Position numbers and translations under genes: made by a program. From IMG/VR virus record IMGVR_UViG_3300045741_000433, positions 1-63,120 of that record: DNA of 63,120 nt, one strand, 5' to 3'. The notes beneath the pieces were generated by a model. That model was not told where the DNA came from. It searched no databases and saw only the letters and a list, made by a program, of their open reading frames with translations. The DNA is from a virus (taxonomy: Duplodnaviria > Caudoviricetes). This document shows, piece by piece, positions 8,075-54,692 of the stretch; position 1 is the stretch's first letter, and the number at the start of each line of letters is the position of its first letter.

Positions 8075-9070
8075 TTAACTATTAAATCCTGCAATGTCTT
8101 TCATTCCCGATCTTGTGCGACCAAAAGAATCATAACGAACTTTAACAAAATCTTCAAACAAATCTTTTTGAGGTCTTTGCAAAACATCCCTCTTAACTAA
8201 AGAAGAAATGAAATTTGCCATAGGATCTGGCACTGAAGCTGGTACTTCTTTCTTATCTAGTCTTTTGCCGCCATTTAGCGCATAAATCATTAACATGCCC
8301 GCACTATAATAATCAGATGCTGGCAACAACGTTTTGCCATCAATTTGTTCTGGAGAGGCAAAAGTTGGAGTATATCCAATAGACTTATCAGAACTACCTG
8401 GACGAACCATTGCTAAACCAAAATCAACTAATACAACTGAATGCGTCTTTGGTTGAATGATAACATTTTGTGGCTTAATATCACCATGAATAACTCCATG
8501 GTGATGAAGATAAAGTAAAGCATTAAAAATACGCTCAGAAATCCAAGCGGTTGTTTCTGGATCAATCTTTCCGGCCTTCTCTACTATTTGTTCTAAAGTA
8601 TAACCAGGAATATAAGACATGATAAGGGCGAGACTGCCATCATCAAGTCTTTGAAGATCGCGCATAACTGGGAGAGCATAATGCCTTAGGTCCCAAATTG
8701 ACTTCATTTCTTGAATAAGAACCGCATCATGTGCGGGTGAGACCATGGAGCAATGTTTGATACACACAGGGTCTTTTGTGATAATGTGTTCGCCTTTGTA
8801 AGTAGAACCGAAGCCTCCTTCAGCGATTGATTCAAGAACACGATAGCTTCCAATAATGGCTCCCTTCTTGTTTTGAAGATCTTTATCAAATTTTTTCCTT
8901 TTGTTTGAATCGGAAAGAATTTCATAGGCTGCATTTAATTCCTTTGCTTTAGCTTCATTACCAGAATGATCTGGATGATGTAATTTTATTAATGCTTGGT
9001 ATGCAGCTTTAATAACAGTAACGCTTGCTCTATTACTTACTTCCAAAACTTTATACGGATCATTATTCAT
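8075..9070 (-). CDS. DnaJ-domain Ser/Thr protein kinase
   Basis: HPD J-domain; GGFG, HGDIKPQN, DFG. Confidence 0.92.
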   Translation of the reverse strand: MNNDPYKVLEVSNRASVTVIKAAYQALIKLHHPDHSGNEAKAKELNAAYEILSDSNKRKKFDKDLQNKKGAIIGSYRVLESIAEGGFGSTYKGEHIITKDPVCIKHCSMVSPAHDAVLIQEMKSIWDLRHYALPVMRDLQRLDDGSLALIMSYIPGYTLEQIVEKAGKIDPETTAWISERIFNALLYLHHHGVIHGDIKPQNVIIQPKTHSVVLVDFGLAMVRPGSSDKSIGYTPTFASPEQIDGKTLLPASDYYSAGMLMIYALNGGKRLDKKEVPASVPDPMANFISSLVKRDVLQRPQKDLFEDFVKVRYDSFGRTRSGMKDIAGFNS

Positions 9071-11088: not shown

Positions 11089-12177
11089 TTATGCCTTGAT
11101 TTTATCAAGAACCGATGGAATTGCCTCAACCAATTCATTAAAATTTTTATAGGCCGGATATTGTTTCATAATTTTTTCCAGATGCACAAAATAAACTCTA
11201 GTAATATCCATATTGAATCTATGAGATTGCCCTGCCGCATCTAAAATTGGCTTTAAATACTTTCCATATCGAACTAGCCCAGCTTCCAATCCATAATCTT
11301 TTAGATAGTGGAAAGCAATATAGAGATGTCCAAAATGATTAAACCTTTTTAAATCTAGATACCCGCTCTCAAAAGCAAAGACAGCTTCATCTGGAATGTA
11401 AGGAAGATTCTTTTTAAATTCTCCTTTGATAATTTGAGCATCGATATACTTAACCAATTGCTGACGCAACTCATTAGACATAGTATATTCTTTCATATGT
11501 TCTTTGCCGCGTTGCTGAAGTAGTTCATCCACCTCTGCAATATGGCGAGCTGGAAGAGCCATACGGCCACAGATGCAATCTGTTTCACAACTCTTATCGA
11601 TAGCTTGCTGAGGAACTTTCAAATACTCAGAGATTTTTAGAATCTCACTCTTCCATAAATGAATGATTGGTTGAAGACTAACTGCCATAGATGCATTGCT
11701 ATAATTATAAAGTTCCTCTTCTGTACGGTTTCTAGTGCCCACCACCCAGTATTGATCCTCAGGCAGTCGCATCATACGTTTCTTATCATTAGAAACGACA
11801 GATAAATCCATTAGGTATCCCCAACGTAATCCATCACAACGCCAATCAATTGAAGTATCTACTATAATATCCGCGCCAGGAGCCTGCTCTTTAAGCCAAG
11901 GAATAACATTATCTTTAAACCAAAGATGAGTTTTTGCCTCAGGATGATCATATAAAAAATCTTCTGACGGAGCAAAATGAACTCCAAAAACACGATTAGA
12001 CTTACCAGCTTTTTCACATGCTTTAAATGCCGCAAGAAAAACAACTAAAGAATCAGTTCCGCTTAATCCAACAAGAAAACCTGGAGCACCTTGCTGAAGC
12101 TTATCATAAAACCATTGAGCCAATGCATCAAAAGTGGTTGCGGCGTCAATACTTCGAGGAATATCTAATGTCTTCAT
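11089..12177 (-). CDS. NAD synthetase (NadE)-like protein with extra C-terminal domain
   Basis: GLSGTDS PP-loop, VVGTRNRTE, PIIHLWKSEI. Confidence 0.75.
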   Translation of the reverse strand: MKTLDIPRSIDAATTFDALAQWFYDKLQQGAPGFLVGLSGTDSLVVFLAAFKACEKAGKSNRVFGVHFAPSEDFLYDHPEAKTHLWFKDNVIPWLKEQAPGADIIVDTSIDWRCDGLRWGYLMDLSVVSNDKKRMMRLPEDQYWVVGTRNRTEEELYNYSNASMAVSLQPIIHLWKSEILKISEYLKVPQQAIDKSCETDCICGRMALPARHIAEVDELLQQRGKEHMKEYTMSNELRQQLVKYIDAQIIKGEFKKNLPYIPDEAVFAFESGYLDLKRFNHFGHLYIAFHYLKDYGLEAGLVRYGKYLKPILDAAGQSHRFNMDITRVYFVHLEKIMKQYPAYKNFNELVEAIPSVLDKIKA

Positions 12178-13115
12178 TGTATTTCAATATTAAGCAGTTC
12201 GTCTGTCAAACCCTGTAATAACTCAAAATTCTCTACCTGATTTTTATATTCTTCTGGAATGCCTTCTAAACCGTAATAGGTGCCAGCTAAAGCCCCTACA
12301 ATGGCCGCAGTAGTATCAGTATCCCCACCAGCCCTAACTGCCATTACAACAGCCTCCTGGAAGCTCCTGGTGGCACTAAAACAAAATAATGCTGCTCCAA
12401 CAGTCTCTGGTACATAACCGCTAACACCAATCTCCGCAAAAGCATAAGATGATACATCAGCTATAGGCGTGTGCCTTTCTGCCCATTTTGAAGCTAATTC
12501 TAATTTAGTTTTAATAATAGAATCAGGAATAATATCAAGTATATCTTCTGGTAAACTTTTTGGCGAACTAACTCCAGTTGCTAACAATGCTGTAGTTATA
12601 GCTACTACAACAGAGCCTATCTTTGGCTCCATTGAGTTATGAGTAATACTTGCATCTTTTATAGCACACTCCATCAATTTAGTCAAGTCATGTCTATAAA
12701 CCAAACCAATAGGCGATGCTCTCATTGCTGTACCATTACCACCAGCAGGTAATCCGTCATAGCCTACAATCAAACCGCTTTCTTTATAATTAGCACCTAA
12801 TTTTAAATTAACCATAGCGCTTGCAGTAGTTGTTCCAATGCCTCTAGTATTTCCAGTATCATACCAAGCTAAATATTCTTTGGCAACATCATCTGGATCA
12901 AATCCATTACATTGTAATAAACTTTTAGATAGTGCAATACTCATAAGAGTATCATCGGTATATTGTCCGGCTTCACCTTTCCAAAATGTTCCGCCAGCTT
13001 TGAATTGTCCATCCCATTCTTTAAGTAATGGACTAATGGCTGGTTTCATTTCGAAAGGGTTGCCAAGCGCATCACCAATTGCGCAACCTACTAATGTAGC
13101 AATTGTTTTAGACAT
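12174..13115 (-). CDS. ADP-ribosylglycohydrolase (DraG/ARH family)
   Basis: GDALG, YTDDT, GNGTAMR, GGDTDT. Confidence 0.93.
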   Translation of the reverse strand: MSKTIATLVGCAIGDALGNPFEMKPAISPLLKEWDGQFKAGGTFWKGEAGQYTDDTLMSIALSKSLLQCNGFDPDDVAKEYLAWYDTGNTRGIGTTTASAMVNLKLGANYKESGLIVGYDGLPAGGNGTAMRASPIGLVYRHDLTKLMECAIKDASITHNSMEPKIGSVVVAITTALLATGVSSPKSLPEDILDIIPDSIIKTKLELASKWAERHTPIADVSSYAFAEIGVSGYVPETVGAALFCFSATRSFQEAVVMAVRAGGDTDTTAAIVGALAGTYYGLEGIPEEYKNQVENFELLQGLTDELLNIEIQ

Positions 13116-13540: not shown

Positions 13541-13616
13541 TGGAGTCGCGAGTCCGAATCGAACGGACAATCAACCGGGTTGCAGCCGGTGCCATTAGCC
13601 ATTTTGGTACCGCGAC
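13541..13616 (-). tRNA. tRNA-Cys(GCA)
   Basis: ACCGG-CTGCAAC-CCGGT, U73. Confidence 0.92.
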
Positions 13617-16988: not shown

Positions 16989-17390
16989 AATAGTTTCTCC
17001 GTAATTTATTTACTAAAAAATTAGAGGCGTACCTCTTTAGACAACAGATATCATAATCATAATTTATATCGTGTCAAGCGAGGGCTTAAATTAAAACATT
17101 AATAATCATCGTCCAAATAATGCGGTTGCTTACCAGCAGGTTGCCAGCCCTGTAACCACATGTTATAAAACGCTTCAATTTTTACATATTTTTCGCCTTC
17201 TATTAGATAATTAACTGAACCATAAAACGAGCCCGTTTTATGATCACAACTAATGGTTGCGCAAATAACATTAGCAATAAGCGTCTTTTTCTTTTTAATT
17301 TTTAATTGAATAGGCTTATTCGTAACAATAGCCGCAGCCAATGCATATGTATCATCCATTGCCATAATAATCCTCAATAAAATAAAAATA

Positions 17391-17881
17391 GAGAAAGCAG
17401 TCAATAAGCGGAGTCCTGTCTATAAAACGAGGCAATCATTAATCTACGCAATTAGTTACCTAATTGCTTTAGCGCTAACCCGTAAGCATCGACCACACAA
17501 GTCTCAATCGCTTACTATTTAGCTTGCAGCACCCAGGGTTTGCCTTGCCATATTTGTCTCCAAACATGCGGTAAGCTCTTACCTCACCATTTCACCCTTA
17601 CCATATAAATTGAGTCTCTTGCCGTTCCGATCGTCTTGGCGAGTTGATAACAACGGGATGCCTATACCCTATACGTTATCTTGCGTTTTTTCCCGAGACC
17701 CAACAGGGGGATAAAATGGGCCTACCCCTTACCACGCTGGTCTTTAATTTATATGGCGGTTTCTTTTCTGTTGCACTTTCCGTCACCTCACGGTGCCTGG
17801 ACGTTATCCAGTGGGTTGTGTTTTGCTGCTCCGACTTTCCTCGATAAGTTTCCTTATCGCGATTACCTAGACTACTTTCTC
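17391..17881 (-). ncRNA. rnpB: RNase P RNA (bacterial type A) with expanded P12
   Basis: GAGGAAAGTCGGAG, GGAAAGTGCAACAGAAA, GGGTGAAA, GGCAAACCC, ACAGGACTCCGCTTAT; P1 end pairing; compensatory changes in P4. Confidence 0.93.
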
Positions 17882-32876: not shown

Positions 32877-32949
32877 TGGCTCTCCCCCAAGGACTTGAAC
32901 CTTAACTCTCGACCTCAAATGGTCGCCGTGCTAATTACACTAGAGAAGA
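32877..32949 (-). tRNA. Gln-like tRNA with abnormal anticodon loop
   Basis: U1, G73-CCA, loop ATTTGA. Confidence 0.6.
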
Positions 32950-33519: not shown

Positions 33520-33651
33520 TGGCTCTAAGACTAGGACTCGAACCTAGAAAGTGTTTTACCACCGGGCGGTTATCTTTGGAACATTCCGAATCGAACGGAC
33601 ATTTACCTTTAGTTCCCACAGCCGCCTGCCTTGCCATTAGGCTATCTTAGA
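33520..33651 (-). tRNA. tRNA-Asn(GTT) interrupted by a 45-nt nested mini-tRNA
   Basis: GGCGG-CTGT[33573-33617]TAA-CCGCC; G73-CCA. Confidence 0.8.
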
Positions 33652-33909: not shown

Positions 33910-33987
33910 TGGCTCCGAAGGCCGGATTCGAACCAGTAACAAAACGAAGTTAACAGCTTCGCGGTTTCACCATTCACCCACCTCGGA
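33910..33987 (-). tRNA. tRNA-Asn(GTT)
   Basis: CGAAG-CTGTTAA-CTTCG. Confidence 0.92.
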
Positions 33988-34133: not shown

Positions 34134-34211
34134 TGGTGGGAGAGGATGGAATTGAACCACCGCGCCTTAAACTTTTTAAGGTTTAATGCTCTTTCTCTGA
34201 GCTACTCTCCC
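34134..34211 (-). tRNA. tRNA-like RNA with 8-nt anticodon loop (CTTAAAAA)
   Basis: Good D, T and acceptor arms, CCA. Confidence 0.7.
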
Positions 34212-34820: not shown

Positions 34821-35333
34821 TCACAAAATTAGCTCACCACTATGATAAGCTGCATGACAATTTTTACATAATAAAACACAATTTACTAACTCTTTATCAA
34901 TTTTACTTCTTGTCCAGTATCTTATTGATGAAAATGAAATATCTTTTTTCGATGGATCAGGATGATGAACATCTAAAGATGATTTCCATTTAGAAAAATT
35001 ACAACAAATATTTGAACATTTGCCGCCTAATTTTTCAAGAATATAAATTCTATTTTCTTGACCTTTTAGAAGAGTATATTTACAATGACACTTTGCACAC
35101 ACTGTAGTTTTATTTCCATAAAATTTAAAGGGATCAGTTTCGCCACATCCACATTTTCTTTCAAAAAGAAAATCTTTTGGCTTTTTACCCCTAGCTCCTC
35201 TCTTTAGTTTTAACTCAAACTTTTTAAGCCAATATCTAACATTAGAGATAGAAGTATTACATTCTATAGAAATTTGTTTTAAAGTAAAACCACGCTCAAT
35301 TAATTCATGAAGTATTGTTTTTTCCATACCCAT
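34821..35333 (-). CDS. HNH endonuclease with N-terminal HTH
   Basis: LDVHHPDP...CVLLCKNCH. Confidence 0.85.
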   Translation of the reverse strand: MGMEKTILHELIERGFTLKQISIECNTSISNVRYWLKKFELKLKRGARGKKPKDFLFERKCGCGETDPFKFYGNKTTVCAKCHCKYTLLKGQENRIYILEKLGGKCSNICCNFSKWKSSLDVHHPDPSKKDISFSSIRYWTRSKIDKELVNCVLLCKNCHAAYHSGELIL

Positions 35334-35754: not shown

Positions 35755-35837
35755 TGGTGGGGGAGCCAGGAATTAAACCTGGGACCTCAACGTTTTCCTT
35801 ACGGTATCGTTGCGCTCTTTCTCTGAGCTACTCCCCC
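35755..35837 (-). ncRNA. tRNA-like RNA with elongated anticodon arm
   Basis: Same D arm as 34134-34211; CAACG-ATA-CC-GTAA-GG-AAAA-CGTTG. Confidence 0.7.
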
Positions 35838-35994: not shown

Positions 35995-36525
35995 TTAATC
36001 TTGCTCTTCATCACCAAACTTTATAAAACCAAACTTATTTTTAATTTCATTAGCAATGAAAGGTGGCACAAAACTAGAAATATCACCTTCAAATCTAGCA
36101 ATTGTTTTAGCCCCAGAAGAAGATACTACTGCCAAATTTGGACTAGTTGGCAAAAATACCGTCTCAATTTCTGGCGCTAAAACTTTATTTACATTAGCTA
36201 AATTAATTTCATATTCGAAATCAGATACAGATCTAATTCCTCTAATTAAAACTTTTGCATTTAATTCTTTTGCAAGATTAACTATTAATCCATTAAAAGA
36301 AACAACACTTACATTTTTATTATTTAATGATTCGGTAAAGCCGGAAGCTAAAACATAATTAATCATTGCCAATCTTTCATCAATAGAAAACATTGTAGTC
36401 TTCTTTTCATGATTAACTCCAATTGCAATAACTAATTTATCACATATAGATAAACTTCTTTTAAGAATATCTATATGTCCATTAGTTATTGGATCAAAGC
36501 TTCCGGCGTAAATACCTGTAATCAT
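35995..36525 (-). CDS. coaD: Phosphopantetheine adenylyltransferase
   Basis: YAGSFDPITNGH, IRGIRSVSDFEYE, VSSS. Confidence 0.93.
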   Translation of the reverse strand: MITGIYAGSFDPITNGHIDILKRSLSICDKLVIAIGVNHEKKTTMFSIDERLAMINYVLASGFTESLNNKNVSVVSFNGLIVNLAKELNAKVLIRGIRSVSDFEYEINLANVNKVLAPEIETVFLPTSPNLAVVSSSGAKTIARFEGDISSFVPPFIANEIKNKFGFIKFGDEEQD

Positions 36526-40246: not shown

Positions 40247-41821
40247 TTACAGATCAATTGACTCAATGGTTTTGACCCACAAGTCTTTGTTGTTACCAAG
40301 CTCAACGAATCTTGCGATTACGTCAAATACTTGGTCACTGAATCCACCAACATTTAAAATGTCATCGCGATCATGTGCTTGAGTAGTTCCGTTAGGAGTT
40401 ACATCAATGCACACAAGCTTTGCATTTGGATTACGGGCTTTGAACTTATTCCATTCATTCATGGTAGCAGTGCTACGATAAATGTTTTTATCAACCCAAG
40501 ACTCATTATCAGACACATAAATAACAAGGTCACCCTTGGCATTCTTACGATTGACATGTGCCAATGCTTCTGAGCAATTCGTTCCTCCACCACCAAAGTT
40601 AGCTAGAGTTCTAGCATTAGTCATGATTGAATCCATTGGATTCAAACAGTGACCATGAACTTGAGTATCGAATGGAATTACTTCAGTATCAACATTTTTG
40701 CGCATTACTGCTGCTGCAACTAAGGCTGCAACATCAATGCAACGCATCTTTGAAGAAACCGTACCACGGTGACCCGTGACAGGAGAACTCATAGATCCAG
40801 AAGTATCAACCATAACATAAACCTTACCATCGAATTCAGGAACATTCTCTAAAGCAACCTCAGCGGCTTTTTGCAAAGCAACTGAAACCTTAGCAGGAAT
40901 AGTAGATTCGATGTTTAAGAATGCGGTGAATAATTGATATGGGAAAACTTTCGCTCTCTTGATCTGCTCTTCATCTTGCAACTTATCTACAACAATAGAA
41001 GTCAATTTAGGATCTGCGAATACGCCATGACGTTCGAACGTATTAAGGTTCATTCTAGTCTGGGTCCAAGTTGCATTTTCAGCAATTTGTTTCCAGTGAT
41101 TATCAGTCAAAGGTAATGCAGTAAGCATTTGAAAAGGAACATCAGGAATTTCTCCCTTCATGTCCTTCTTGAAAGCTTCGAAATCTTTTGCTAACTTGCA
41201 AAGATCTTTCTTGTTATACTTTTTGTCAAGTAAGTATCCAAACAAAGCAGAACGCTTTTTGTTGTTTGGCTTTGGATGAACAAGCTTAATAATGTCTTGT
41301 AATGACGGATCATTACCAACATCTGCCTTGAACAATTGTTCATCAGTTAAGTTCTCAAGATATTCTTGAATCAATTTCTTTGGACGAGTTCCCAAAGACT
41401 TACGGCCAGTTGCGCCGGAACGAATAATCTGAACGAAGTTTCTCAACATCTTTGGATTATCAATAACACGAGGAAAAATTTTAGACAAAAGTTCAGAATC
41501 TTTGCCAGCAACAACTGCTGTCAATACAGCTGGCATATCCTTCATTAAACCTTTTTCACGAGCATAAACCGCAAGTTTCGCAACAAACTCAACTGGAAGC
41601 TTGTTAGCTAATTCAAGAGTTCTTTTTAATTGTTCCTTGTCAGAAACATAATAGGTTCCATTAAAGCAACCAGTCATAGCTAATTGAGCAAGGCCAGCCT
41701 TATCGCTTAAAGAATAGGCGTTTCCACCAGCATTATTTACAGTGTCAGTTGGCTTGGTAACCTTATTGAACTTAGTAGAAATGAAAGACTTTTTCGAATT
41801 AAATAAATTTTTAGATGACAT
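40247..41821 (-). CDS. rsr: Ro60/Rsr TROVE-vWA RNA-binding protein
   Basis: NNAGGNAY, MNLNTFERHG, FPYQL, DTSGSM, GGGTNC, VSDNESW, GGFSD. Confidence 0.92.
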   Translation of the reverse strand: MSSKNLFNSKKSFISTKFNKVTKPTDTVNNAGGNAYSLSDKAGLAQLAMTGCFNGTYYVSDKEQLKRTLELANKLPVEFVAKLAVYAREKGLMKDMPAVLTAVVAGKDSELLSKIFPRVIDNPKMLRNFVQIIRSGATGRKSLGTRPKKLIQEYLENLTDEQLFKADVGNDPSLQDIIKLVHPKPNNKKRSALFGYLLDKKYNKKDLCKLAKDFEAFKKDMKGEIPDVPFQMLTALPLTDNHWKQIAENATWTQTRMNLNTFERHGVFADPKLTSIVVDKLQDEEQIKRAKVFPYQLFTAFLNIESTIPAKVSVALQKAAEVALENVPEFDGKVYVMVDTSGSMSSPVTGHRGTVSSKMRCIDVAALVAAAVMRKNVDTEVIPFDTQVHGHCLNPMDSIMTNARTLANFGGGGTNCSEALAHVNRKNAKGDLVIYVSDNESWVDKNIYRSTATMNEWNKFKARNPNAKLVCIDVTPNGTTQAHDRDDILNVGGFSDQVFDVIARFVELGNNKDLWVKTIESIDL

Positions 41822-43209: not shown

Positions 43210-44409
43210 TCATAGAACAACTGAAAGAATTTGCCCAATAGTTGTCCAATCTGTTAATTCTTTTTTAATTAAATCATTTATAGAATGAATTTCTATAAAT
43301 GTTTTTTCAGAATCTTCAACATTTCCATGAACGGTTCCCTCTTGAGACTCAAACCATTTTAATTCTTCTTCTGTTAATTCAGCAGAATAAAGATATGATT
43401 TATGAGAAGAGAATGTTCCGGCTAATTGTCTTGCTCCATGAAACTTTAAGCGCTCTGGATCAATATGAAATGAAGTCTCTTCATAAACTTCATGAGCCGC
43501 AATTTCTTTTGGCTCTTCATTTTCATCAGATGCAGATGAGCCTCCTGGCAACTCTCTTACAAAACCATCTTTAGTATTTGCTGGAGATCTAAATTCTTTT
43601 ATTAAAATGACTTTATAATCTTTACTGTCTCCCCAATCACCAGACTTATGATACAAGCATACAGAAGAAATGTCAGTACGCGCTAAAACAAATTCATTTG
43701 TTTTATTTCTATTCTCTGACTCGACAAAAATATCTACCTTAAGAACCCAGGCATAAACAAACTTTTTATTACCAGGGCGAAAAGACCAAAGTAATTCTGC
43801 ATGATCTAAACGATTGCCGGCTTCTTTTTGCGAAAGATACCATGATTGAAAAGAGGGTGTTTTCCAAATAAATAGTGGAACATATCTCTCGCCTTCAGTA
43901 CGACCATCGCCTTCACCTAACATATCAAGAGCTGCATCTAATGTTTCTGTTAAAGTAGTTCCGCCTTCAACATTATAAAAGTCAGCGTAATATTTAAGAT
44001 ATTTGTTTTTTCTTTCTTTTAAATCTGGCGGGCAACCAAATACAACTTTACCTGAATCTGCCCAAGCTCCCCATTCTACATTAGTGGTAAAAGCAGGCAA
44101 CTTCAATTGATCATTTTTGTCGAGAGATACATCGCGAGGAACCCAGAAAACAATACAGTCGGCTAAATTAAGATGTTTATGTTCCCAATCAATCTGATCA
44201 TCATAACTAAAATCTTTATCAAACTTACCATCTTTATTTTCTGGGCAGAAGATAACGCCATCAAATCCTTTATCTTTTAGAATTTGAATGGCATCATTAC
44301 GCCATGATTCCATCTCTTTTTCTTGCCCAGGTCTAAGGGAAGGACCGGCCAAAAATATACTACTTGTAATGGTTTCTGGCATCTCTTCACCGGTATAAAC
44401 GATTTTCAT
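43210..44409 (-). CDS. Nucleoside 2-deoxyribosyltransferase-like domain fused to NUDIX
   Basis: IFLAGP...WE...FW...TTNVEWG; ELPGG...EVYEET. Confidence 0.8.
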   Translation of the reverse strand: MKIVYTGEEMPETITSSIFLAGPSLRPGQEKEMESWRNDAIQILKDKGFDGVIFCPENKDGKFDKDFSYDDQIDWEHKHLNLADCIVFWVPRDVSLDKNDQLKLPAFTTNVEWGAWADSGKVVFGCPPDLKERKNKYLKYYADFYNVEGGTTLTETLDAALDMLGEGDGRTEGERYVPLFIWKTPSFQSWYLSQKEAGNRLDHAELLWSFRPGNKKFVYAWVLKVDIFVESENRNKTNEFVLARTDISSVCLYHKSGDWGDSKDYKVILIKEFRSPANTKDGFVRELPGGSSASDENEEPKEIAAHEVYEETSFHIDPERLKFHGARQLAGTFSSHKSYLYSAELTEEELKWFESQEGTVHGNVEDSEKTFIEIHSINDLIKKELTDWTTIGQILSVVL

Positions 44410-53264: not shown

Positions 53265-53387
53265 TGGTGGAGCGGGTAGGATTCGAACCTACAATTCGTA
53301 TCGGTTACAATCGATTTAGAATAGGTGGATTCAGAGTGATTGTACCACTCTTCGGCCTCCCGCGTACTCCAATTCCGCCACCGCTCC
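53265..53387 (-). ncRNA. Interrupted Tyr-like tRNA (123 nt)
   Basis: GGAGCGG/CCGCTCC-A-CCA, intact D and T arms, about 40 extra nt. Confidence 0.7.
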
Positions 53388-53582: not shown

Positions 53583-54692
53583 TCACTTAATCTTATTCCT
53601 CAACTCAGTAGAACTAATATCCCATCTGCCAGGAAGATCTTTTAATACCCAATATGCCTCATCTATAACATGTTGTTCTTTAAAAATCTCATCACTCTTT
53701 GCAAGAATATCATAAACATGAACTAACTTATTGTCAATGGTTCTTGCCGCCACATAAAGTCTTGTATGCAATTTCCAAAATTGAGAAATTAAATCAGATG
53801 GATCAATTCCCCATTTAGGATCAAGCATGCGTACAAGCGCATCTGTTCCTAATAAAATTGACATCCCAGGATAAGCTTTAGCCTTATCTAAATACATAGG
53901 CATATCTGTAGTAAAAATTCTATTATGGCCCTGTAAAAGCTTGGCCCTCTTAAGCATATCTTGAACAGATAATTTATCTTTATGGGGCGGCGTGGTACTA
54001 ACTTCAAACACTACTCTTTCGGAATGATCTTTTTCAAACTCAGTTGCCATACTTAAATGACCAACATGAGGCGGATTAAACGCACCAGGCATTAATGCCC
54101 AATCATTAGAATTTAAAATCGCTTCAAGCCTATATCCATTAGCAGTAAAGAATGGTCTGCGCAAGAATCTTGCTCTAGCTAAATCAGTAGCATCAATGCT
54201 ACCTTCGCTTGACTTCGTTCCAATACCTAATGCCTCATACATAAGCATGAAAGCATTCATATCAACACGAACGCCATCACGTACTCTTTGGTCAATACCA
54301 ATCCCTTTATCAAGTATAACATAGTCGGTAAGAACTTTATCATCAGTAATAACGCAAACGTTAAAACGATGGTCTCCTTTGTGAAGAACTTCAGATGCAA
54401 CAGATGCAGTAATACCAATACCAACTGGTTTCTTACCACCGAATCTATATGCTTTCATATAAGCGGCGCTAGCCAAATCAATAGCAGTTTCTTGACTAAC
54501 AAAATGTTCTGGTTTGAATCCAAGTAATTCTTCAGTTTCGGATTGATCATATGGAAATGAACAACCTGAAAGGTAAGCAGAACTACCAGGAACTTGCCAA
54601 AGCATTTGCTGAAGTCCGGCACCAGCACCAGTTGCAATAACATGAATGCTTATATTAGCACTTTTAAGTGCATTAACATCATTAGCCCACAT
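53583..54692 (-). CDS. CinA/PncC-like domain fused to nucleotidyltransferase (NadD-like)
   Basis: PGSSAYL, GIGIT; PGAFNPPHVGH, LGTD, ISSTELR. Confidence 0.75.
   Translation of the reverse strand: MWANDVNALKSANISIHVIATGAGAGLQQMLWQVPGSSAYLSGCSFPYDQSETEELLGFKPEHFVSQETAIDLASAAYMKAYRFGGKKPVGIGITASVASEVLHKGDHRFNVCVITDDKVLTDYVILDKGIGIDQRVRDGVRVDMNAFMLMYEALGIGTKSSEGSIDATDLARARFLRRPFFTANGYRLEAILNSNDWALMPGAFNPPHVGHLSMATEFEKDHSERVVFEVSTTPPHKDKLSVQDMLKRAKLLQGHNRIFTTDMPMYLDKAKAYPGMSILLGTDALVRMLDPKWGIDPSDLISQFWKLHTRLYVAARTIDNKLVHVYDILAKSDEIFKEQHVIDEAYWVLKDLPGRWDISSTELRNKIK

What the first reader, a model, noticed from the sequence alone, without database searches (positions are those of the whole stretch)
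33520..33651. tRNA-Asn with a nested mini-tRNA inserted in its anticodon
Seen: deleting 33573-33617 restores the canonical Asn loop CTGTTAA in an otherwise intact tRNA with G73-CCA. The 45-nt insert folds as GGAAC/GTTCC, a D-loop-like AAAGGTAAA and the T arm TCCG-TTCGATT-CGGA. That T arm is identical to the one in tRNA-Cys at 13541. The insert is too short for a group I/II intron and shows no clear bulge-helix-bulge. Inference: it is either an intron removed by tRNA end-processing nucleases (RNase P plus a 3' nuclease) and ligated, or a double-elbow decoy that hides the anticodon from anticodon nucleases.
Basis: partly seen in the sequence, partly recalled or inferred. Interest (0 to 1): 0.8.

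Follow-up and report, generated by a model that had tools for sequence, protein, structure and literature searches.

The report
Mini-tRNA-shaped intron in phage tRNA-Asn
A huge phage's asparagine tRNA gene is split in the middle of its anticodon by a conserved 45-base insert that folds like the top half of a tRNA, a compact kind of phage tRNA intron that may be cut out by the cell's ordinary tRNA-trimming enzymes.

Summary
Window 33520-33651 (- strand) is a tRNA-Asn(GUU) gene carrying a 45-nt insert (33573-33617) exactly between anticodon nucleotides 35 and 36. Uninterrupted orthologues in three related huge-phage contigs fix that junction. The same insert sits at the same site in tRNA-Asn genes of 13 viral contigs, 14 copies in all, and a diverged relative sits at the same site in one tRNA-Lys(UUU). 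Both insert helices are backed by compensatory changes (92.8% of cells paired against 65.4% in shuffles, 0 of 500 shuffles as high). The fold copies a tRNA acceptor/T-arm stack of 7+5 layers, with a T loop and a D-loop-like GG. In 4 of 4 complete genomes that carry it, the interrupted gene is the only tRNA-Asn, so it is almost certainly spliced. The 5' junction (U|G at the base of the stack) is where RNase P would cut. The 3' cut is unexplained. These phages encode ATP-type RNA ligases, but almost no RtcB and no splicing endonuclease. Two copies in one genome are 98% identical inside tRNA bodies that are 58% identical, so the insert moves. "Enigmatic" tRNA introns with a nested tRNA were already reported in Lak megaphages. 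This is a distinct, compact variant. No RNA data were available, so splicing is not shown.

The parts
33520..33651 (-). Interrupted tRNA-Asn(GUU) gene, 132 nt including the encoded CCA; 87 nt once the insert is removed
   Evidence: Rfam tRNA 41.3 bits, model positions 1-71; ARAGORN with introns allowed; alignment with uninterrupted orthologues
33618..33651 (-). 5' exon, 34 nt (standard positions 1-35), ending CUGU (C32 U33 G34 U35)
   Evidence: Sequence; junction fixed by alignment A3
33573..33617 (-). 45-nt insert (intron): G+1, outer stem, AAAGG, spacer, T hairpin, outer stem 3' strand, 5-nt tail AAAGA
   Evidence: covariance model R1 scores it at 55.2 bits
33612..33616 (-). Outer (acceptor-like) stem, 5' strand GGAAC; pairs with 33578-33582
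   Evidence: Covariation: 5 of 6 pairs of this helix change on both sides across 14 sequences; also predicted by RNAalifold
33606..33610 (-). AAAGG, a D-loop-like element; the A and GG sit at fixed insert positions 10-12
   Evidence: A invariant, GG in at least 90% of 14 sequences
33585..33599 (-). T-arm-like hairpin TCCG-TTCGATT-CGGA
   Evidence: 4 of 5 pairs of this helix change on both sides. The T loop is the same in the 5 copies found without constraining the junctions. In the later hits it was part of the search pattern.
33578..33582 (-). Outer stem, 3' strand GTTCC
33573..33577 (-). Single-stranded tail AAAGA (A opposite G+1, then 4 nt); the 3' junction follows it
   Evidence: The tail is 5 nt in all 14 sequences. 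In 5 of them the search pattern did not fix its length.
33520..33572 (-). 3' exon, 53 nt, starting UAA (U36 A37 A38), with long variable arm, T arm, G73 and CCA
33910..33987 (-). Second, uninterrupted tRNA-Asn(GUU) of the same phage
   Evidence: ARAGORN; Rfam 48.1 bits
34821..35333 (-). Free-standing HNH endonuclease gene 1.2 kb upstream, a distant relative of the HNH genes that abut the interrupted tRNA-Asn in other contigs
   Evidence: PHROG HNH families, E 5.7e-13; tblastn 38-41% identity over 71 aa
17389..17879 (-). Phage-encoded RNase P RNA (bacterial class A), a possible but not required player
   Evidence: Rfam 270.8 bits; absent from 4 complete insert-bearing genomes

Best explanation
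This is a genuine small intron of 45-51 nt that lives in tRNA-Asn(GUU) genes of huge phages, always between anticodon nucleotides U35 and U36. It folds into a miniature tRNA top half. An unpaired G+1 faces an A. A 5-bp stem usually extends by a T-A layer, giving 7 acceptor-like layers. That stem stacks on a 5-layer T stem capped by a TTCGATT T loop. An A-GG element sits where a D loop would dock on that T loop. A 5-nt tail leads to the 3' exon. The tRNA cannot decode until the insert is removed, so it is spliced.

Most likely mechanism (inferred, not shown): the mimic recruits the cell's tRNA end-processing machinery. RNase P cuts at U35|G+1, exactly where it would cut a pre-tRNA. A second endonuclease cuts after the tail, at the equivalent of tRNA position 76|77. 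Because both cuts would leave 3'-OH and 5'-phosphate ends, a phage ATP-dependent RNA ligase of the Rnl1 or Rnl2 type could seal the anticodon loop without end healing.

The intron is mobile at the DNA level and often travels with a free-standing HNH endonuclease gene next to tRNA-Asn.

My odds: about 0.8 that it is a spliced intron, about 0.4 that RNase P makes the 5' cut, and lower for any named 3' nuclease.
For: The junction is fixed by orthologues with and without the insert.

There are 14 copies in 13 viral contigs, all at CUGU|UAA of tRNA-Asn. All 12 exon sets joined in silico give a standard tRNA with U1, G73 and paired stems.

Covariation supports the fold. 13 of 16 pairs change on both sides. 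92.8% of cells pair, against 65.4 +/- 2.2% in shuffles (0 of 500 as high) and 25-50% when partners are slid. RNAalifold finds the same helices.

The interrupted gene is the only tRNA-Asn in 4 of 4 complete insert-bearing genomes (G001, G002, G003, G006). The complete insert-free relative G008 has two intact ones.

Geometry fits a tRNA mimic. The stack has 12 layers in 12 of 14 sequences and 11 in two. U is at -1 and G at +1 in all. The tail is 5 nt in all.

Enzymes: Rnl1-type ligase is in 8 of 18 records (4 of 5 complete). Rnl2-type is in 12 of 18 (5 of 5 complete). RtcB is in 1 of 18. The archaeal-type splicing endonuclease is in 0 of 18.

Mobility: the two L005 copies are 98% identical while their exons are 58% identical. 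A same-family HNH gene lies within 260 nt in 4 of 12 loci examined.

Precedents: a tRNase Z that cuts precisely after A76 exists in Thermotoga maritima (PMC1540738, abstract seen in the listing). Lak-A1 phage introns hold a full nested tRNA whose discriminator base abuts the 3' exon, which is an RNase Z-type junction (my own parse).
Against: No RNA data exist. The only run holding this DNA is a DNA run, so neither splicing nor any cleavage has been seen.

The 3' junction is 3 nt past the ordinary RNase Z site, and tail positions 74-76 are not CCA. No known bacterial enzyme is predicted to cut there.

None of the 18 records encodes an RNase Z-type metallo-beta-lactamase.

The ligases are equally present in the insert-free relatives G008, G009 and G010, so they do not track the intron.

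Phage RNase P RNA is confined to the window's clade (5 of 17 records) and is absent from complete insert-bearing genomes.

G+1 faces A rather than C. The 7th layer pairs in only 8 of 14 sequences and the 5th T layer in 6 of 14.

A proteome comparison found no phage protein specific to insert-bearing genomes, though its sensitivity was low.

Most family members were found with a pattern that fixed CTGTGG, the T loop and AA...TAA, so the invariance of those letters is partly built in.
Confidence: 0.5

Rival explanations
1. It is a true intron, but it is removed by something other than tRNA end-processing enzymes. Candidates are an unrecognised phage or host endonuclease that reads the internal loop between the anticodon stem and the outer stem, or a new small self-cleaving or self-splicing RNA in which the T loop is only a folding module.
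For: The internal loop is as constant as the stack: 5 nt on the 5' side and 8 nt on the 3' side in all 14 sequences. The 3' junction fits no known tRNA 3' nuclease. The same genomes hold other anticodon-loop inserts that do not look like tRNA: a 36-nt plain hairpin in a tRNA-Leu-like gene of G006 and an 8-nt insert in tRNA-Phe at window 35755-35837. These hint at a more general removal system.
Against: No ribozyme family matches even at E up to 1. 45 nt is very small for a double-cutting ribozyme. The last intron base is not conserved (G in 8 of 14), unlike group I introns. No splicing endonuclease was found. This reading does not explain why selection keeps a tRNA-like 12-layer stack with a T loop and GG.
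Confidence: 0.28
2. The insert is never removed. The 132-nt RNA is the final product and acts as a non-decoding tRNA-like RNA, for example a decoy for anticodon nucleases or other tRNA-sensing defences, or a ligand for the phage Ro60 protein.
For: The window phage also has an intact tRNA-Asn at 33910-33987, so here the interrupted copy is dispensable for decoding. The window encodes a Ro60/TROVE protein at 40247-41821, and bacterial Ro60 partners are tRNA-like Y RNAs (recalled, not tested). Asn and Lys tRNAs are known targets of anticodon nucleases (recalled).
Against: In 4 of 4 complete insert-bearing genomes the interrupted gene is the only tRNA-Asn. In G006 the same holds for tRNA-Lys(UUU). 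The two loop halves always rebuild a perfect 7-nt loop whose anticodon matches the identity of the tRNA body. TROVE is absent from 3 of 4 complete insert-bearing genomes.
Confidence: 0.12
3. It is a dead tRNA gene disrupted by a stray insertion, or an assembly artefact.
For: Default tRNA finders skip it.
Against: Exon stems stay perfectly paired through compensatory changes in 12 of 12 genes. The insert is conserved with covariation across 13 contigs. A second assembly of the DNA run is identical, though it may come from the same sample.
Confidence: 0.03

Closest known systems
'Enigmatic' tRNA introns of Lak megaphages (Devoto et al., bioRxiv 10.1101/356790; I read the passages found, not the figures or supplementary tables)
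   Same: Huge phages, with highly conserved introns in tRNA anticodon loops. One intron was reported to 'itself encode a possible tRNA'. Excision points were set by alignment with intron-free copies. The mechanism is unknown. In Lak-A1 (MK250016) I saw a 114-nt and a 93-nt insert, each holding a full nested tRNA-like unit. One scores 30.4 bits on the Rfam tRNA model.
   Different: My covariance model of the present family finds nothing in Lak-A1. The Lak inserts are 2-3 times longer. They begin with a leader of about 30 nt and carry a complete cloverleaf, and the nested discriminator base abuts the 3' exon. The present family has no leader, no D stem and no anticodon arm. Its 5' junction is the precise one, and its 3' junction lies at the equivalent of position 76|77.
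Archaeal and eukaryotic tRNA introns (bulge-helix-bulge motif; EndA/TSEN endonuclease plus RtcB or Trl1 ligase)
   Same: A short intron without an ORF in the anticodon loop, removed by proteins rather than by self-splicing.
   Different: The position is 35|36, not 37|38. There is no bulge-helix-bulge motif: the junctions lie in a 5 x 8 internal loop with no 4-bp helix between two 3-nt bulges. The endonuclease family is absent from 18 of 18 records, and RtcB is present in only 1 of 18. The hosts are presumably bacteria.
Bacterial group I introns in tRNA anticodon loops (tRNA-Leu UAA, tRNA-Ile, tRNA-fMet; recalled; Azoarcus pre-tRNA-Ile paper PMC13168695 seen only in a listing)
   Same: A bacterial-world tRNA intron in the anticodon loop. 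The 5' exon ends in U. The intron is mobile with help from a homing endonuclease.
   Different: Group I introns are about 200 nt or more with a catalytic core and a terminal G. This insert is 45-51 nt, has no Rfam intron match and no conserved last base.
tRNA-like modules released by RNase P and RNase Z from longer RNAs (mascRNA of MALAT1, PMC8457004; plant mitochondrial t-elements, PMC1920247; both seen only in the listing)
   Same: An acceptor/T-arm mimic embedded in another RNA that marks cleavage sites for tRNA end-processing enzymes.
   Different: Those modules mark RNA ends and the flanks are not re-joined. Here the flanks are the two halves of a tRNA and must be ligated.
Phage T4 anticodon-loop repair (PrrC nuclease, Pnkp, Rnl1; recalled)
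   Same: A phage-encoded RNA ligase that seals a break in the anticodon loop of tRNA-Lys. Rnl1-family genes occur in these phages.
   Different: That is repair of damage with 2',3'-cyclic phosphate ends that need healing. It is not removal of an intervening sequence.
Collaborative homing of an intron with a free-standing homing endonuclease (cyanophage psbA intron and its neighbouring endonuclease; recalled)
   Same: An intron without an ORF lies next to a free-standing HNH gene. There are near-identical intron copies in diverged target genes of one genome.
   Different: The HNH family also sits beside uninterrupted tRNA-Asn genes (L004/L070, L006, Lak-A1). Its target site is untested.

Membership tests
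tRNA (Rfam RF00005), the host gene | Full-length match above the gathering score | tested here: met
   41.3 bits against a cut-off of 29, model positions 1-71, with the insert as a 48-nt gap in the anticodon loop
tRNA-Asn | GUU anticodon in a 7-nt loop after removal of the insert, with U1 and G73 (identity elements recalled) | tested here: met
   Loop CTGTTAA; U1 and G73 in 12 of 12 exon sets joined in silico; uninterrupted orthologues are called Asn(GTT)
Bulge-helix-bulge (archaeal/eukaryal) tRNA intron | Two 3-nt bulges separated by a 4-bp helix, each holding a splice site | tested here: not met
   The consensus structure has a 5-nt/8-nt internal loop between the anticodon stem and the outer stem. 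A possible pairing of nt 32-35 with the tail is not conserved and would place the 3' site outside the bulge.
Bulge-helix-bulge (archaeal/eukaryal) tRNA intron | Splicing endonuclease (PF01974) available | tested here: not met
   0 of 18 phage records; the control search found it in 4 archaea. The host genome is unknown.
Group I intron | Catalytic core recognisable by covariance models; terminal G; length of roughly 200 nt or more | tested here: not met
   Only the tRNA model matches at E up to 1. Length is 45-51 nt. The last base is G in 8 of 14 sequences.
RNase P substrate (tRNA-like acceptor/T minihelix) | A coaxial stack of about 12 bp ending in a T loop, with the cleavage site at its base | tested here: met
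   7+5 layers in 12 of 14 sequences and 11 layers in two. T loop TTCGATT (TGCGAAT in the Lys copy). U at -1 and G at +1 in 14 of 14. The outermost layer is a G.A mismatch.
RNase P substrate (tRNA-like acceptor/T minihelix) | Actual cleavage by RNase P at that site | not testable with these tools
   No RNA reads for this phage; this needs an in vitro assay
RNase Z substrate | 3' cut directly after the discriminator (position 73) | tested here: not met
   The 3' junction lies 3 nt further on, at the equivalent of 76|77, in 14 of 14 sequences. Only the T. maritima-type enzyme is known to cut after 76, and it does so on CCA substrates (PMC1540738 abstract).
Lak-phage nested-tRNA introns | Huge-phage tRNA intron in the anticodon loop containing a tRNA-like unit | tested here: met
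   Passages of 10.1101/356790; Lak-A1 inserts inspected
Lak-phage nested-tRNA introns | Sequence or structure homology to the Lak introns | tested here: not met
   Model R1 finds no match in the 541,643-bp Lak-A1 record at E up to 1. The architecture differs (leader plus full cloverleaf).

The most novel reading that the evidence does not exclude
This would be a third enzymatic route of tRNA splicing, specific to phages of bacteria. The intron disguises itself as the acceptor/T-arm half of a tRNA, so RNase P cuts its 5' junction and an enzyme that measures from the tRNA elbow or acceptor end cuts its 3' junction. Both cuts leave 3'-OH and 5'-phosphate ends, which a phage Rnl-type ligase joins directly. 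The element spreads between tRNA-Asn (and tRNA-Lys) genes together with an HNH homing endonuclease, and may shield the gene from that endonuclease.
Probability: 0.33. Interest if true: 0.9.

Novelty: new variant of a known kind. Interest (0 to 1): 0.75.

Why it matters
Bacteria and their phages are thought to have only self-splicing tRNA introns. Protein-dependent tRNA splicing is regarded as a trait of archaea and eukaryotes. The Lak-phage report left the 'enigmatic' phage tRNA introns without an anatomy or a mechanism. This family is small, sharply defined and rich in covariation. It suggests a concrete mechanism that is cheap to test: a 132-nt transcript, RNase P, a 3' nuclease and a ligase. 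If that mechanism holds, it shows how an intron can survive by borrowing a universal RNA-processing enzyme. It would also give a minimal natural RNase P substrate. Standard tRNA finders skip or mislabel these genes: this family is called His, Thr, Ile or Arg. Anticodon inventories and codon-usage or recoding inferences for huge phages are therefore being skewed.

Tried and rejected
RNA evidence: the look-up of sequencing runs listed one run, a DNA run, with no RNA holder. Laying that run gave an identical contig and nothing about RNA.

Metagenome-wide scan: three calls got no answer from the machine. No metagenome scan result exists.

Exact insert core in viral contigs: 0 matches.

GenBank phage collection: no match to the whole gene at E up to 1e-3, and only unrelated tRNA hits for the 3-kb neighbourhood.

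Prokaryote genomes: the pattern gave 88 stretches. I tested the 80 that were listed with model R1 and got one weak hit (27.2 bits), which is not in a tRNA. No bacterial or archaeal copy was found with this pattern.

Lys-type control pattern (CTTTGG...): 26 stretches, 0 pass R1.

A 21.5-bit full-length R1 hit in insert-free G010 is not in a tRNA.

Ro60 link rejected: TROVE is in 2 of 5 complete genomes and in none of G002, G003 and G006. The CCA-adding enzyme is in 4 of 5 and shows no association.

Phage RNase P RNA as a requirement rejected.

Dedicated phage splicing factor: I searched 544 G003 ORFs by tblastn against G006, G002, G001 and G008. Only 4 were shared by all insert-bearing genomes. 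The single one that is weak in G008 is an SF2 DNA helicase. Sensitivity was low.

K-turn, bulge-helix-bulge and guide-like pairing between intron and exons were checked by eye on the 14 sequences and are not conserved.

Literature: ten full-text searches found no description of this compact class. Only the Lak preprint describes phage tRNA introns. Its supplementary Table S6 and its Figure 5 could not be seen and may list related sequences.

Full report
WHAT THE WINDOW IS. The window is a complete IMG/VR virus record of 63,120 bases, estimated to be 14% of its genome. That makes it a fragment of a phage of roughly 450 kb. It is AT-rich at 30-40% GC. Almost all genes lie on the - strand. It carries 27 Rfam tRNA matches and a class A RNase P RNA. 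No close relative exists in the GenBank phage collection.

THE OBSERVATION. On the - strand, 33651-33520 reads as a tRNA. The acceptor stem is TCTAAGA/TCTTAGA, followed by G73 and CCA. The D arm is GCCT/AGGC, the anticodon stem GGCGG/CCGCC, the variable arm 17 nt and the T arm CTAGG/CCTAG. The Rfam tRNA model matches it end to end at 41.3 bits (cut-off 29), with 48 nt in place of three anticodon-loop positions. Default ARAGORN misses it. So the identity of the tRNA depends on the exact junction, and comparison settles it.

RELATIVES FIX THE JUNCTION. A neighbouring gene (cytidylyltransferase, 35995-36525) led to 79 related viral loci. The closest of them share the window's order of tRNA genes. 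At the matching position, three contigs (L008, L002, L006) carry an uninterrupted 83-87-nt tRNA-Asn(GTT) with the same unusual long variable arm. Three others (L005, L089, L007) carry the same gene with an insert. The alignment places the insert without ambiguity between CTGT and TAA, that is between U35 and U36. ARAGORN's 'His' is an artefact of assuming the canonical intron position.

A FAMILY, NOT A ONE-OFF.
- A pattern taken from the T hairpin and outer stem found copies in three contigs. These are the two L005 copies, the L007 copy and a new one, L081.
- A looser pattern found 16 stretches. Twelve of them lie in the anticodon loop of a tRNA-Asn. Four (L083, L084, L086, L093) are chance matches.
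- With the window, that makes 13 contigs holding 14 copies and 13 distinct insert sequences of 45-51 nt.
- The tRNA bodies are of at least three kinds: long variable arm, ordinary, and others. Exon identity falls to 53%.
- ARAGORN also turned up a diverged relative in tRNA-Lys(UUU) of L094, again between nt 35 and 36 (CTTT|TAA), with T loop TGCGAAT.
- A control pattern that replaced CTGTGG with CTTTGG gave 26 stretches, none of which passes the family's covariance model.
- In one genome for each of 185,579 prokaryote species, the pattern gave 88 stretches. I tested the 80 that were listed and found one weak model hit that is not in a tRNA.
- The element therefore looks phage-restricted, as far as this pattern can see.

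STRUCTURE. I aligned the 14 sequences with their anticodon stems (A1).
- 92.8% of cells form standard pairs, against 65.4 +/- 2.2% in shuffles (0 of 500 reach it) and 25-50% when partners are slid by 1-3 columns.
- 13 of 16 pairs show changes on both sides.
- The outer stem appears as GGAAC, GAAAC, GAAGC, GATGC, GGCGC, GATAC and GGATC, each with its complement.
- The T stem appears as TCCG, CCCG, TCAG, TGAG and GGTG.
- RNAalifold independently predicts the same two helices, and 11 of its 14 pairs have compensatory changes.
- The stems were not part of any search pattern, so this support is unbiased.
- The single sequence alone folds no better than shuffles (z = -1.26).
- CTGTGG, the T loop and AA...TAA were fixed by the second pattern. 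Their constancy can only be judged from the five copies found without those constraints on the junctions (window, L005a, L005b, L007, L081). Those five do share them.

ANATOMY. Reading 5' to 3', the insert has these parts:
1. G+1, which faces an A.
2. A 5-bp stem.
3. A further layer, T-A or C-G in 8 of 14 sequences.
4. A-GG at fixed insert positions 10-12.
5. A variable spacer of 5-12 nt.
6. A T stem of 4 bp plus a fifth layer that pairs in 6 of 14 sequences.
7. The 7-nt loop TTCGATT.
8. The returning strands of both stems.
9. An A followed by 4 more nucleotides before U36.
That gives 7 acceptor-like layers stacked on 5 T-stem layers. This is the same 12-layer stack as the acceptor/T-arm limb of a real tRNA, with a canonical T loop and a GG placed where D-loop G18 and G19 would dock. 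Twelve of 14 sequences have 12 layers and two have 11. The 5-nt tail is constant. In tRNA numbering the insert runs from +1 to 76. It lacks a D stem and an anticodon arm, and it does not have CCA at positions 74-76.

IS IT REMOVED? No RNA data exist for this phage, so the case is comparative.
- The two loop halves always rebuild a perfect CUGUUAA loop (CUUUUAA in the Lys copy).
- The exons keep every stem paired through compensatory changes. They keep U1 and G73 in 12 of 12 genes.
- Whole-genome tRNA scans cover the four insert-bearing genomes that CheckV rates complete: G001 (448 kb), G002 (285 kb), G003 (203 kb, terminal repeats) and G006 (208 kb). In each, the interrupted gene is the only tRNA-Asn. 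In G006 the interrupted Lys gene is the only tRNA-Lys(UUU).
- The complete insert-free relative G008 has two intact tRNA-Asn genes.
- A phage that keeps a single tRNA-Asn gene under this much constraint is very likely using it, and use requires excision. I put this at about 0.8.

HOW. The known routes fail their membership tests.
- There is no bulge-helix-bulge motif. The junctions lie in a 5 x 8 internal loop.
- The archaeal-type endonuclease family is absent from all 18 records searched.
- RtcB is present in 1 of 18.
- The insert is far too small for a group I core, matches no Rfam ribozyme or intron at E up to 1, and has no conserved last base.

What selection does maintain is a tRNA elbow set at a fixed distance from the 5' junction, with U at -1 and G at +1. 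That is the substrate geometry of bacterial RNase P (established knowledge, recalled).

The 3' cut is the weak point. It lies 3 nt beyond the ordinary RNase Z site, at the equivalent of 76|77. A tRNase Z that cuts precisely after A76 is known from Thermotoga maritima, but it acts on CCA-bearing precursors (PMC1540738, abstract). None of the 18 records encodes an RNase Z-type metallo-beta-lactamase.

RNase P and RNase Z-type cuts both leave 3'-OH and 5'-phosphate. ATP-dependent ligases join such ends directly. Rnl1-type genes occur in 8 of 18 records (4 of 5 complete) and Rnl2-type genes in 12 of 18 (5 of 5 complete). This is consistent with the model but not specific to it, because insert-free relatives have the same ligases.

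The phage RNase P RNA is confined to the window's clade (5 of 17 records). It is missing from G001, G002, G003 and G006, so host RNase P would have to do the work.

A proteome comparison used 544 G003 ORFs against the other four complete genomes. It found no protein specific to insert-bearing genomes except a generic SF2 helicase. That search was insensitive: only 4 ORFs were shared by all four genomes.

MOBILITY.
- In L005 the two tRNA-Asn genes are 58% identical in their exons, but their inserts are 98% identical. The insert moved between them recently.
- Between those two genes lies a 185-aa HNH endonuclease gene. Homologues sit 20-260 nt from the interrupted gene in L089, L095 and L087. 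That is 4 of the 12 loci examined. PHROG HNH families match at E down to 1e-31.
- The same HNH family also sits beside uninterrupted tRNA-Asn genes in L004/L070, L006 and Lak-A1.
- In the window its nearest relative is 1.2 kb away, at 34821-35333.
- So this is an HNH lineage associated with tRNA-Asn genes. Whether it drives homing of the intron, or whether the intron protects the gene from it, is untested.

PRIOR ART. Ten full-text searches found one relevant source, the Lak megaphage preprint (10.1101/356790; passages read). It reports 'tRNAs with highly conserved introns'. It says such introns had not been reported in phages before. [quoted passage not shown]

I inspected Lak-A1 directly. 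My model finds nothing there. Its two long inserts have a leader of about 30 nt followed by a full nested cloverleaf whose discriminator base abuts the 3' exon. One of them may in fact be another tRNA-Asn split at 35|36 (CTGT...TAA, with G73); that is my own parse and is not settled.

The general phenomenon is therefore known and unexplained. The compact acceptor/T-arm mimic described here is a distinct variant. Together with the Lak architecture, it points to tRNA end-processing enzymes as the common theme. The preprint's Figure 5 and Table S6 could not be seen and may bear on this.

VERDICT. The intron interpretation is well supported by comparison. The RNase P step is plausible, the 3' step is open, and the decoy reading is unlikely. 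Nothing has been shown at the RNA level.

Noticed in passing
window 35755-35837 (-): tRNA-Phe with a 15-nt anticodon loop (ATACCGTAAGGAAAA). The 8 extra bases can form a CC-GTAA-GG mini hairpin. The feature is conserved in L002:10755-10837, L003:4261-4343 and L005:5831-5913. Whether these bases are removed or tolerated is unknown.
   Followed up: partly
window 53265-53387 (-): A 120-nt tRNA-like gene (Rfam tRNA 37.6 bits) with 62 nt where the 17-nt anticodon arm should be. It seems to have an extended arm ending in a GAGTG/CACTC hairpin with loop GTACAAT, plus a long variable region. ARAGORN's Trp call with a 25-nt intron is not convincing.
   Followed up: partly
window 17389-17879 (-): Phage-encoded class A RNase P RNA (270.8 bits), 491 nt long because of an expansion of about 136 nt in the P12 loop. 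Relatives' copies are 330-364 nt.
   Followed up: partly
window 40247-41821 (-): Ro60-like protein (TROVE plus Ro60 vWA domains). No Y-RNA-like partner was looked for. The protein does not co-occur with the intron in other phages.
   Followed up: partly
window 32877-32949 and 34134-34211 (-): tRNAs with a 6-nt and an 8-nt anticodon loop (ARAGORN anticodons 'tt' and 'taaa'). Relatives have similar oddities and suppressor-type anticodons (tta, cta).
   Followed up: no
window 11089-13115, 35995-36525, 43210-44409, 53583-54692 (-): A scatter of NAD-related genes: NAD synthase-like, ADP-ribosylglycohydrolase, two cytidylyltransferase-like (NMNAT-type) proteins of which one is fused to CinA, and a nucleoside deoxyribosyltransferase-NUDIX fusion. 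There is also a DnaJ-Ser/Thr kinase fusion at 8075-9070.
   Followed up: no
L214:6666-6787 (G006:192665-192786): A tRNA-Leu(UAA)-like gene with an insert of about 36 nt in the anticodon loop. The insert is a plain 7-bp hairpin (CGATGGT/ACCATCG), not tRNA-like. This is a third kind of short anticodon-loop insert in these phages.
   Followed up: no
L224 c8984-9148 (Lak-A1 MK250016: 499983-500147): The Lak-A1 intron-bearing tRNA that ARAGORN calls Ser and the Lak preprint lists among Tyr(GTA) can also be read as tRNA-Asn split at 35|36 (CTGT...TAA). It has a short variable region and G73. The nested tRNA-like unit ends one base before the 3' exon.
   Followed up: partly
L007:13383-13519: A 137-nt tRNA-like gene with normal acceptor, D and T arms but about 60 extra nucleotides after a short anticodon-like hairpin. 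It does not belong to the family described here.
   Followed up: no
G008:58023-58535, G009:59790-60332, G010:37508-38026: In the window's insert-free relatives, an RNA-ligase-family (PF09414) gene lies about 1 kb downstream of the phage RNase P RNA gene. No such match is present in the window itself.
   Followed up: no
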